From the IMG/VR virus record IMGVR_UViG_2875713109_000004: 18,564 nt of DNA; one strand, given 5' to 3'. Of the stretch, positions 13,240 to 13,751 are shown one piece after another (position 1 is the stretch's first letter; every line of letters starts with the position of its first letter). The stretch is from a virus (Duplodnaviria > Heunggongvirae > Uroviricota > Caudoviricetes). The notes beneath the pieces were generated by a model. It saw only the letters and a list, made by a program, of their open reading frames with translations. It searched no databases and had not been told where the DNA came from. The position numbers and the translations under genes were made by a program.

Positions 13240-13610
13240 TTCGCATCCCTAAAAACAATGAATTTAGAATAAATAAACCCACAAACAAGACTGATGGCAG
13301 AGAAGCCAACCAGCGTGACTATTGGCGGCAGGCCACATCTGTCAGCAGACCAGCCAACAACAGCGCTCAGGCAGCCCATAAAACCAACATAGAGCATATA
13401 ACGCATGGTGGTTGTCTGAGAATTAAACGTGAACTTAGCATTTGCATAAAAACTGAACGACACAGCAATTACGAAACCTGCGAAGTTAGCGAGTGCCTGA
13501 TTTGTATGCAGTCCGTAGATGCAAACTGCGAAAACTACCCAGTGTATCAGGGTATTGAGGACACCGACTGATGTGTACTTTAAGAATATTTTTAACACAA
13601 TGCATTCCAT
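13236..13610 (-). CDS. gtrA: GtrA, small membrane flippase component of O-antigen glucosylation
   Basis: C-terminal ~120 aa of track ORF 13236..13712 (…[41 protein letters not shown]...FIVFRDAK) matches GtrA family as recalled from P22/Shigella phage GtrA. The long track ORF starts at a TTG and is probably an over-extension; true start is the ATG near 13610 or a GTG near 13598 giving MLKIFLKY. My hand indexing of this 5' end was inconsistent by 2 nt, so treat the start coordinate as approximate. Confidence 0.8.
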
Positions 13611-13630
13611 GTGACAGAAACAGTAGTTTA

Positions 13631-13645
13631 TCACCTTTAGGGTAA
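13631..13645. promoter_or_regulatory. Operator-like site TCACC-N5-GGTAA (one mismatch to TTACC-N5-GGTAA) in the divergent gap between gtrA and the lysis cassette
   Basis: Read directly: tcACCtttagGGTAAt. Coordinates approximate given the indexing uncertainty noted for gtrA. Confidence 0.3.
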
Positions 13646-13751
13646 TTTCCTTAAGAGTTATTCGATGAAATTTAATCCACATATGGTTTATTGTGTATGA
13701 TGAACTCACCAACTAAGGGGGGTTCTTTATGCACATTAAACGGTGGTCACT

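What the first reader, a model, noticed from the sequence alone, without database searches (positions are those of the whole stretch)
13599..13751. Divergent gtrA / lysis-cassette control region carries an operator-like site and no GATC cluster
The roughly 150-bp gap between gtrA and the first lysis gene contains TCACC-N5-GGTAA (13631-13645), one mismatch from the immunity operator. Many gtr operons phase-vary through Dam/OxyR at clustered GATC sites, but I saw no GATC cluster in 13700-13900, although the island encodes its own DPPW methyltransferase. This raises the possibility that gtr and/or lysis expression is wired to the prophage repressor rather than to Dam-dependent phase variation. 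Coordinates are approximate because my indexing near 13560-13620 was inconsistent by 2 nt against the ORF track.
Basis: partly seen in the sequence, partly recalled or inferred. Interest (0 to 1): 0.5.

Follow-up and report, generated by a model that had tools for sequence, protein, structure and literature searches.

The report
Prophage repressor operator between gtrA and lysis genes
The 15-bp site between gtrA and the lysis genes is a conserved binding site for this epsilon15-like prophage's master repressor; it overlaps the likely gtr promoter, and the Dam/OxyR phase-variation signature is absent, so it extends a known system and is not a new kind of control.

Summary
Both parts of the observation hold. 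TCACCTTTAGGGTAA lies at 13631-13645 in the 153-bp gap 13599-13751. There is no GATC between 13069 and 14002, and OxyR half-site matches are at chance.

The window is a deleted epsilon15-like (Uetakevirus) prophage in E. coli PSS-07. Its repressor (5410-6000) is a homolog of SPC32H Rep (PDB 5D50).

The operator consensus is TTACC-N5-GGTAA. It occurs 6 times in the window against 0.30 expected, and 8-11 times perfectly in each complete relative. The epsilon15 GenBank record already labels several of these as repressor sites.

The gap site lies 118-123 bp before the first lysis gene in 53 of about 75 distinct relatives. Its half-sites are conserved. Its central spacer and both flanks vary.

On the minus strand the variant half-site GGTGA supplies the TG of an extended -10 (TGnTAnnnT). 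This is found in 16 of 16 unrelated O-antigen-modification cassettes, against 12 of 134 control flanks. The gtrA start codon is only 32 nt away.

On the plus strand an invariant TATGAT lies 65 bp downstream, the same spacing as at the tailspike operator.

Likely mechanism (inferred): Rep binding blocks the gtr promoter and helps silence the lysis genes.

Interest is modest.

The parts
13631..13645 (.). Rep operator TCACCTTTAGGGTAA, one mismatch from the palindrome TTACC-N5-GGTAA
   Evidence: Conserved 118-123 bp before the lysis ATG in 53 distinct relatives, with ACC and GGTAA invariant and the N5 spacer variable.
13625..13633 (-). Predicted extended -10 of the leftward gtr promoter: TGATAAACT on the minus strand (TG at 13633-13632, hexamer TAAACT at 13630-13625). 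The predicted transcript start is near 13618.
   Evidence: Best promoter score in the gap, 99.83rd percentile of the window. The TGnTAnnnT pattern is present in 16 of 16 independent cassette families against 12 of 134 control flanks, p = 2e-14.
13236..13598 (-). gtrA (120 aa, GTG start). Its start codon is 32 nt from the operator.
10851..13239 (-). gtrC (10851-12392) and gtrB (12310-13239), downstream of gtrA in the same operon
   Evidence: Annotation of the identical E. coli PSS-07 locus
13675..13688 (+). Recurring motif ATCCACATATGGTT, found downstream of Rep operators throughout these phages. It would cover the -35 region of a rightward promoter. Its function is not resolved.
   Evidence: 5 copies against 0.52 expected in the window, and 11 against 1.1 in phage Tyrion
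13696..13701 (+). TATGAT, the candidate -10 of the lysis-cassette promoter, 65 bp from the operator start
   Evidence: Promoter score in the 99.70th percentile. Invariant in the 7 aligned relatives. The 65-bp spacing holds in 39 of 44 distinct relatives, and the same spacing holds at the tailspike operator in 7 of 8 genomes.
13686..13741 (+). Long conserved RNA hairpin that would pair the Shine-Dalgarno sequence AAGGGGGG (13715-13722). The homologous stretch is annotated as an RNase III site in the epsilon15 record.
   Evidence: Fold energy -32.9 kcal/mol, z = -3.4. Annotation; alignment.
13729..13767 (+). 12-codon mini-ORF (MHIKRWSLCRTR) behind the strong Shine-Dalgarno sequence, overlapping the start of the first lysis gene
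13752..15534 (+). Lysis cassette: holin-like membrane protein (13752-14156), holin (14143-14436), GH19 endolysin (14426-15055), Rz-type spanin (15052-15534)
5410..6000 (-). Rep repressor (196 aa), the protein expected to bind the site
   Evidence: Homolog of SPC32H Rep, PDB 5D50_A, E = 1.2e-48 over the full length. The helix-turn-helix stretch is invariant in 6 related Reps.
5276..5352 (.). Leftward early operators: perfect sites at 5276-5290 and 5338-5352
6056..6118 (.). Operators between rep and cro: 6056-6070 (perfect), 6073-6087 (2 mismatches), 6104-6118 (GGTGA variant, lying in the spacer of the rightward early promoter)
6987..7001 (.). Perfect operator between the truncated ant gene and the tailspike gene. 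It has the same 65-bp spacing to a rightward -10 (TAAACT, 7052-7057, directly preceded by the half-site GGTAA).

Best explanation
The site at 13631-13645 is a functional operator for the prophage's own Rep repressor (5410-6000), an epsilon15/SPC32H-type protein. It is the hub of a compact two-way control region that all epsilon15-like phages carry between their O-antigen-modification cassette and their lysis cassette.

Leftward. The half-site reads GGTGA on the minus strand. Its TG, together with the adjoining TAAACT, forms an extended -10 promoter, with a transcript start near 13618 and a leader of about 20 nt before the gtrA GTG. The operator fills positions -27 to -13 of that promoter. Rep and RNA polymerase therefore cannot sit there together. 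gtrABC should be fully on when Rep is absent (at infection or induction) and throttled in the lysogen. How far it is throttled depends on how well Rep occupies this single, one-mismatch site.

Rightward. The same operator lies 65 bp before an invariant TATGAT, the geometry also seen at the tailspike operator. It would act as the distal Rep site that keeps the lysis genes silent. A conserved leader hairpin and a mini-ORF add a second layer of control.

There is no Dam/OxyR phase-variation module.

Shown: the sequence match, the cognate repressor, conservation, spacing and promoter signals. Inferred: Rep binding at this site, the direction and strength of its effect, and both transcript starts.
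For: - Motif enrichment: 6 sites against 0.30 expected in the window, and 14 against 0.54 in the complete phage BUCT554. It is the top palindrome, with 8-11 perfect copies, in five complete relatives.
- Repressor identity: the window protein matches SPC32H Rep at E = 1.2e-48. The epsilon15 GenBank record labels the same motif 'protein_bind repressor' at seven places. A perfect, unlabelled copy lies at 24704 in the homologous epsilon15 gap.
- Footprint-like conservation: the site is at a fixed distance in 53 distinct relatives. ACC and GGTAA are invariant, the N5 spacer is variable, the left-hand cassettes are unrelated, and the 27 nt to the right are variable.
- Module boundary: homology with phages that lack gtr begins at the operator's left edge.
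- Leftward promoter: best score in the gap. TAnnnT follows GGTGA in 16 of 16 cassette families against 12 of 134 control flanks, p = 2e-14. The last T alone, given TA, gives p = 1.5e-6. Start codons lie 20-59 nt away, leaving no room for another promoter. The leftward genes are GtrA, Acyl_transf_3, DUF6056 and epsilon15 gp22.
- Precedent in the same element: the rightward early promoter has an operator with the same GGTGA variant in its spacer.
- Rightward spacing of 65 bp at both the lysis and tailspike sites.
- Negative evidence for the alternative mechanism: no GATC and no OxyR signal, and at most 2 GATC in any relative's gap.
Against: - No binding, footprint or transcript-start data exist for this site, and the primary Rep papers could not be read.
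- Lysogenic conversion needs the modification genes to be expressed while Rep is present. That fits poorly with strong occlusion of their promoter. Epsilon15, a classical converter, even has a perfect operator here.
- All relatives share the same operator core. A test of operator change tracking repressor change was therefore impossible.
- An operator centred about 70 bp upstream of the putative lysis transcript start is not a classical repression position. No Rep half-site lies next to TATGAT, unlike at the tailspike promoter.
- The built-in promoter scan found no sigma-70 site in 13400-13950 at its threshold. My promoter calls rest on a more lenient matrix.
- About a quarter of relatives lack the site. 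The link with orientation of the upstream gene is only partial: my crude ORF-strand call gave 35/11/6/13 (site present, minus-strand gene / present, plus-strand / absent, minus-strand / absent, plus-strand).
Confidence: 0.65

Rival explanations
1. The operator is real but serves only the lysis cassette, as a distal repression site or a roadblock against stray rightward transcription. gtrABC is expressed constitutively and is in practice not controlled by Rep, because the weakened single site is rarely occupied.
For: - The site belongs to the conserved right-hand (lysis) module, and homology with gtr-less phages starts at the operator.
- Conversion genes must be expressed in lysogens (established biology of epsilon15 and gtr phages).
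- The outer two bases of the left half-site carry a mismatch in most relatives: TC, AT, CT or GT instead of TT.
- The 65-bp spacing to TATGAT is conserved.
- Elsewhere in these genomes, operators sit on ribosome-binding sites inside transcribed DNA, which is roadblock-like.
Against: - The -10 of the leftward promoter directly adjoins the half-site in 16 of 16 cassette families. Any Rep occupancy must therefore compete with RNA polymerase.
- The same GGTGA variant is used at the operator in the rightward early promoter, which has to be bound in a lysogen.
- Perfect operators also occur next to leftward conversion genes: epsilon15, L078 and L093.
Confidence: 0.22
2. The site is bound mainly by another phage protein, such as the Cro-like product of 6155-6385 or a late regulator. 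In that case it is part of lytic-cycle timing and not of lysogenic repression.
For: - Cro-type proteins usually share operators with the repressor (established knowledge of lambdoid phages).
- The motif lies before nearly every transcription unit, including the late genes.
- A second motif, ATCCAYATRTGGTT, accompanies the operators and may mark another factor.
Against: - The motif clusters on both sides of the rep gene, as an immunity operator should.
- The epsilon15 record assigns it to the repressor.
- Binding by Cro would add to Rep binding and would not replace it.
Confidence: 0.08
3. The site is a chance or decayed match with no function. gtr is regulated some other way, for example by an unknown methylation switch that uses the island's MT-A70 methyltransferase.
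For: - One extra one-mismatch site somewhere in an 18.5-kb window is not very unlikely on its own: the expectation is 0.30.
- The element encodes a DPPW methyltransferase of unknown specificity.
Against: - Position and half-sites are conserved in 53 diverged relatives while the flanks and central spacer vary.
- The expectation within the 153-bp gap is about 0.0025.
- There is no repeated candidate methylation motif, no GATC and no OxyR signal.
Confidence: 0.05

Closest known systems
Repressor-binding sites of Salmonella phage epsilon15 (NC_004775 annotation) and the Rep/Ant switch of phage SPC32H (PDB 5D50)
   Same: - Same 15-17-bp palindrome, (A)TTACC-N5-GGTAA(T).
- Homologous repressor (E = 1e-48), and a homologous LexA-controlled antirepressor gene.
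- Same scatter of sites in front of early and late transcription units.
- A perfect copy lies in the homologous epsilon15 gap between gene 22 and gene 23.
   Different: - The copy in this gap is not annotated in the epsilon15 record.
- Here the left-hand cassette is gtrABC instead of the epsilon15 polymerase genes.
- The left half-site is the TCACC variant that creates a TG extended -10.
- In this window the antirepressor is truncated and most of the phage is deleted.
Lambda-type operator lying in a promoter spacer (OR3 over PRM, or operators over PR)
   Same: A palindromic repressor site occupies about -27 to -13 of a promoter, so occupancy excludes RNA polymerase. A weaker site would give graded control and not on/off control (inference from geometry).
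   Different: - The repressor is unrelated in its C-terminal part, is not cleaved through RecA, and is reported to bind DNA as a tetramer (PMC9638917).
- The site is single and isolated, not part of a cooperative triplet.
- The controlled genes are surface-modification genes, not the repressor gene.
Stoperators of mycobacteriophage L5 (many repressor sites spread over the genome)
   Same: There are many repressor sites outside the immunity region, at the starts of or within transcription units. Some lie on ribosome-binding sites. This comparison rests on my own knowledge of the L5 system.
   Different: L5 sites are asymmetric 13-mers that act in an orientation-dependent way inside transcribed DNA. 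These sites are palindromes, number about 10-14 per genome, and lie mostly at promoters.
Dam/OxyR phase-variation region of gtr operons (P22 gtr, Salmonella gtr families I-III and others)
   Same: It occupies the same place, directly upstream of gtrA of a phage-borne gtrABC operon.
   Different: None of the defining elements is present: no GATC pairs and no OxyR half-sites. This locus falls with the gtr operons already known to lack the signature (family IV and the phage epsilon34 operon; PMC3688519).

Membership tests
Operator of the epsilon15/SPC32H-type Rep repressor | Palindrome TTACC-N5-GGTAA with at most one mismatch | tested here: met
   TCACCTTTAGGGTAA has one mismatch. The 17-mer flanking bases A...T also fit.
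Operator of the epsilon15/SPC32H-type Rep repressor | The cognate repressor is encoded by the same element | tested here: met
   5410-6000 matches PDB 5D50_A at E = 1.2e-48. The helix-turn-helix stretch is invariant among 6 Reps.
Operator of the epsilon15/SPC32H-type Rep repressor | Conserved position and half-sites in related phages, with a variable central spacer | tested here: met
   53 distinct relatives carry it 118-123 bp before the lysis ATG.
Operator of the epsilon15/SPC32H-type Rep repressor | Placed so that it overlaps or flanks a promoter | tested here: met
   It directly adjoins the extended -10 of the leftward promoter, and lies 65 bp before TATGAT on the other strand. The promoters are predictions.
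Operator of the epsilon15/SPC32H-type Rep repressor | Direct binding by Rep (gel shift or footprint) and a Rep-dependent change in expression | not testable with these tools
Dam/OxyR-dependent gtr phase-variation region | Four GATC sites in two pairs within about 115 bp upstream of the gtrA transcript start | tested here: not met
   There is no GATC between 13069 and 14002. Definition taken from PMC2909390.
Dam/OxyR-dependent gtr phase-variation region | Three OxyR half-sites overlapping the GATC pairs | tested here: not met
   Matches to ATAGNTNNNANCTAT are at chance (63 against 63.9). The only one in the gap has 3 mismatches and overlaps the lysis-gene start codon.
Dam/OxyR-dependent gtr phase-variation region | ON/OFF colony switching that depends on dam and oxyR | not testable with these tools
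   Needs reporter fusions.
Stoperator-type genome-wide silencing (mycobacteriophage L5) | Many repressor sites outside the immunity region | tested here: met
   14 sites in BUCT554, and 8-11 perfect sites per complete genome.
Stoperator-type genome-wide silencing (mycobacteriophage L5) | Asymmetric sites that act within transcribed DNA in one orientation | tested here: not met
   The sites are palindromic and lie mostly at intergenic promoter regions.

The most novel reading that the evidence does not exclude
Epsilon15-like phages may carry a fixed 'conversion socket': one extended -10 promoter built into a deliberately weakened Rep operator. Unrelated O-antigen-modification cassettes (gtrABC, many acetyltransferases, DUF6056 transferases, the epsilon15 polymerase genes) are swapped in behind it. 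The master repressor, and through Ant and LexA the SOS response, would then set the level of serotype conversion: a burst at infection and induction, and a throttled level in the stable lysogen. In this model the cassettes are not independent morons and do not phase-vary. In the present remnant, with Ant truncated, gtr and the lysis genes would be locked at the repressed level.
Probability: 0.4. Interest if true: 0.55.

Novelty: new member of a known kind. Interest (0 to 1): 0.35.

Why it matters
O-antigen modification by prophages changes serotype, phage susceptibility and immune recognition. For gtr operons the textbook control is Dam/OxyR phase variation.

If the repressor of an epsilon15-like prophage sets gtr expression directly, the surface phenotype of such lysogens would follow the state of the prophage (infection, stable lysogeny, SOS induction) and would not switch at random. 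That affects how serotype heterogeneity and superinfection exclusion are read in E. coli, Salmonella, Enterobacter and Citrobacter strains carrying these phages.

The result also gives a cheap annotation rule. An operator plus TGnTAnnnT next to the lysis cassette marks the conversion cassette and its promoter.

For this strain, a remnant that keeps Rep, the operator and an intact lysis cassette but has lost a working antirepressor is a concrete case of a prophage fragment held silent by its own repressor.

Tried and rejected
- Covariation test. I wanted to see whether the gap site changes together with the immunity operators in phages of different immunity. This was impossible. Every Uetakevirus fetched has the same TTACC-N5-GGTAA core and an invariant Rep recognition stretch, although the Reps are only 46-98% identical.
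- Primary literature. Kropinski 2007, Kim and Ryu 2013 and Kim 2016 are not held. What I say about Rep and Ant rests on the PDB matches, the GenBank annotation and secondary citations.
- Rfam search of 13400-14000 gave no match.
- The built-in promoter scan found nothing in 13400-13950, and its single terminator-like hit lies inside the lysis gene. I replaced it with a simple position-weight scan.
- Link between presence of the operator and orientation of the upstream gene. It goes in the expected direction (35/11/6/13) but has exceptions, and my ORF-strand heuristic is noisy. I do not rely on it.
- I first read TATGAT as lying at 13686 and as part of the transcribed hairpin only. Re-indexing puts it at 13696-13701. 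I now treat it as the candidate lysis -10.
- I considered activation of a leaderless gtrA transcript by Rep, as at lambda PRM. I rejected it because the distance from operator to start codon varies from 20 to 59 nt among cassettes, while the -10 stays fixed.
- I looked for any link between the MT-A70 methyltransferase and the gap and found none. Its specificity is unknown.

Full report
**What the window is**

The window is 99.9% identical (over 99% of its length) to E. coli PSS-07, NZ_AP027673.1 1261619-1279985. It holds a prophage integrated next to guaA, whose relatives are epsilon15-like podoviruses of the genus Uetakevirus.

Gene order:

| Feature | Coordinates | Strand |
|---|---|---|
| Integrase | 1-1254 | + |
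| MT-A70 methyltransferase | 1606-2253 | - |
| PerC-like gene, excisionase-like gene, RecT and nuclease genes | between the methyltransferase and the repressor | - |
| Repressor (Rep) | 5410-6000 | - |
| Cro-like gene | 6155-6385 | + |
| Tailspike | 7106-9457 | + |
| O-antigen-ligase-family gene | 9606-10817 | + |
| gtrC, gtrB, gtrA | 10851-13598 | - |
| Lysis cassette | 13752-15534 | + |
| Host yfgI | from 15754 | - |

The replication and virion genes are missing. The deletion junction lies at 6752-6756.

- The gap 13599-13751 contains TCACCTTTAGGGTAA at 13631-13645.
- The immunity operator is the palindrome TTACC-N5-GGTAA. Sites with at most one mismatch lie at 5276, 5338, 6056, 6104, 6987 and 13631. 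That is 6 against 0.30 expected, and no shuffle out of 200 reached 6.
- The operator next to cro (6104-6118) is the same variant read on the other strand.
- No GATC lies between 13069 and 14002.
- Matches to the OxyR half-site consensus are at chance.
- The published signature of phase-varying gtr operons is four GATC sites in two pairs inside three OxyR half-sites, within about 115 bp (PMC2909390). It is absent here.
- Absence is not unusual. Sixteen of 59 Salmonella gtr operons lack the signature, and the tested ones do not phase-vary (PMC3688519).

**Whose site it is**

The 196-aa product of 5410-6000 matches the Rep repressor of Salmonella phage SPC32H over its full length (PDB 5D50_A, E = 1.2e-48). 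The small minus-strand gene before the tailspike matches the SPC32H antirepressor Ant (5D50_E, E = 4.8e-44 for the intact copy in a sister strain).

TTACC-N5-GGTAA is by far the most frequent palindrome in all five complete relatives examined, with 8-11 perfect copies each. BUCT554 has 14 sites with at most one mismatch against 0.54 expected. They lie on both sides of the repressor gene. They also lie in front of the integrase, the replication-region genes, the small terminase gene, the portal gene, the tailspike gene and the lysis cassette.

The epsilon15 GenBank record labels seven of them 'protein_bind: repressor'. The genome-wide scatter of Rep sites is therefore already on record.

The DNA-reading stretch of Rep (NLVNRW..G.K..G...AR.IE.AA.K) is invariant in six Reps that are otherwise 46-98% identical. 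This explains why the whole genus shares one operator. It also means a covariation test cannot be done.

**The gap site is conserved in the way a working operator is**

In the window, BUCT554, a second E. coli prophage, epsilon15, SPN1S and Tyrion, the site lies 120 or 121 bp before the ATG of the first lysis gene. Epsilon15 has a perfect copy there (24704-24718) that its record does not annotate.

I fetched 89 more loci through the holin-like protein. Among about 75 distinct upstream regions, 53 carry the site at 118-123 bp.

Across 39 well-diverged versions:

- ACC of the left half and GGTAA of the right half do not vary.
- The five central bases vary freely.
- The next 27 nt to the right vary.
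- The DNA to the left belongs to unrelated gene cassettes.

Homology with phages that lack gtr starts at the left edge of the operator.

**Leftward: the gtr promoter is built into the operator**

The start codon of the leftward gene lies only 20-59 nt from the operator, and 32 nt for gtrA. The promoter must therefore overlap the operator.

On the minus strand the sequence reads TTACCCTAAAGGTGA followed by TAAACT. This is an extended -10 (TG, one base, TAAACT). It is the best promoter candidate in the gap, in the 99.83rd percentile of all positions in the window.

The leftward genes fall into about 25 crude families:

- GtrA
- many divergent Acyl_transf_3 O-acetyltransferases
- a DUF6056 transferase
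- epsilon15 gp22

In 16 of 16 independent families with the TCACC variant, the six bases after GGTGA are TAnnnT. Among control flanks of other operators the figure is 12 of 134 (p = 2e-14). The final T alone, given TA, gives p = 1.5e-6. In two loci where a plus-strand gene ends at the operator or no leftward gene was found (L010, L058), the hexamer is degenerate.

T to C on the plus strand creates the TG of the extended -10.

The operator then occupies about -27 to -13 of this promoter. The operator in the rightward early promoter is arranged the same way. By geometry, Rep and RNA polymerase would exclude each other. That step is inference.

**Rightward: the lysis side**

An invariant TATGAT (13696-13701) lies 65 bp from the operator start in 39 of 44 distinct relatives. 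The tailspike operator (6987 in the window) lies the same 65 bp from a -10-like hexamer (TAAACT or TAGAAT, directly preceded by a GGTAA half-site) in 7 of 8 genomes. This shared spacing, kept across a variable spacer, argues that the operator is also tied to a rightward promoter.

An operator centred about 70 bp upstream is not a classical occlusion position. Rep is reported to bind DNA as a tetramer (PMC9638917), so bridging between two sites is conceivable. I cannot show it.

A second motif, ATCCAYATRTGGTT, lies between each such operator and its -10. Its role is open.

Downstream, 13686-13741 folds into a long hairpin (z = -3.4) that pairs the strong Shine-Dalgarno sequence. The epsilon15 record calls the homologous stretch an RNase III site. 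A 12-codon mini-ORF (13729-13767) overlaps the start of the first lysis gene. A transcript starting after TATGAT would lack the 5' arm of the hairpin. A read-through transcript would contain the whole hairpin. This could be a safeguard against accidental lysis, but that is speculation.

**The main weakness**

Conversion genes have to work in lysogens, where Rep is present. I reconcile this by proposing partial occupancy of a single site that usually carries one mismatch. The alternative is that Rep hardly binds here and only the lysis side matters. I give that rival 0.22. Nothing computed here separates the two. Reporter fusions with and without rep would.

**State of this particular element**

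Rep is intact. Ant is cut after residue 53 of 86 by the deletion, although its LexA box (6932-6947) remains. If the model is right, this remnant can no longer be derepressed through the SOS response. Its gtr operon and its intact lysis cassette would then sit at the Rep-repressed level.

**Comparison and verdict**

The site meets every sequence-level criterion for a Rep operator. It fails every criterion for the Dam/OxyR module. It is one more operator of a known repressor family, in a position conserved across the genus but not annotated in the reference record. The gtr operon belongs to the already known class without phase-variation signals.

The new detail is the promoter-in-operator 'socket' shared by unrelated conversion cassettes. 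I rate novelty as a new member of a known kind and interest as 0.35.

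Noticed in passing
window 6400-7000 (junction 6752-6756; ant remnant 6701-6910; LexA box 6932-6947): The prophage is a deletion remnant. About 25 kb is missing, from the replication genes through the head and tail genes. The deletion ends inside the antirepressor gene ant (a homolog of PDB 5D50_E), which keeps only its first 53 of 86 codons. Its LexA box CTGTATTTATGTACAG is the only one in the window and is intact. 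Rep is intact. SOS-driven derepression is therefore probably lost.
   Followed up: yes
window 5296-5309, 6461-6474, 7028-7041, 13675-13688; also L003, L005-L008: A second motif, ATCCAYATRTGGTT (core CCATATATGG), lies on the late-gene strand 20 nt or 26-38 nt downstream of Rep operators or of a GGTAA half-site in all relatives examined. Counts are 5 against 0.52 expected in the window and 11 against 1.1 in Tyrion. Its function is unknown. It may be the -35 region of phage promoters or a site for another regulator.
   Followed up: partly
window 13686-13767: A conserved leader hairpin (z = -3.4) pairs the Shine-Dalgarno sequence AAGGGGGG. A 12-codon mini-ORF (MHIKRWSLCRTR) overlaps the start of the holin-like gene. 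The homologous epsilon15 stretch is annotated as an RNase III site. No Rfam family matches.
   Followed up: partly
window 6987-7057: A perfect Rep operator lies between ant and the tailspike gene. A GGTAA half-site directly precedes a -10-like TAAACT 65 bp downstream. This is the same spacing as between the gap operator and TATGAT.
   Followed up: yes
window 9606-10817 (+) with 10851-13598 (-): The element carries two O-antigen-modifying modules back to back: an O-antigen-ligase/polymerase-family gene after the tailspike gene, and gtrCBA on the other strand. Only 6 of 5426 complete E. coli genomes carry the gtrB-gtrA-lysis junction probed (window 12800-14600) over at least 80% of its length.
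   Followed up: no
L003 20498, L005 26882, L006 26986, L007 135, L008 28568 (just upstream of window position 1): A one-mismatch operator (TTACCyNAAAGGTAT) with conserved flanks lies just before the integrase gene in every complete relative. Rep may therefore also control int. In this locus the site would fall just outside the window.
   Followed up: no
window 1606-2253 (-): The MT-A70 methyltransferase has DPPW at residue 11. Homologs sit at the same place in all relatives. Its specificity is unknown, and no link to the gtrA/lysis gap was found.
   Followed up: partly
window 17174-18564: An IS3-family element is inserted in host DNA between yfgH and yfgG. It is present in the matching strain PSS-07 but absent from the sister strain USMARC-50748. 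The window has an ambiguous base (N) at 18430.
   Followed up: no
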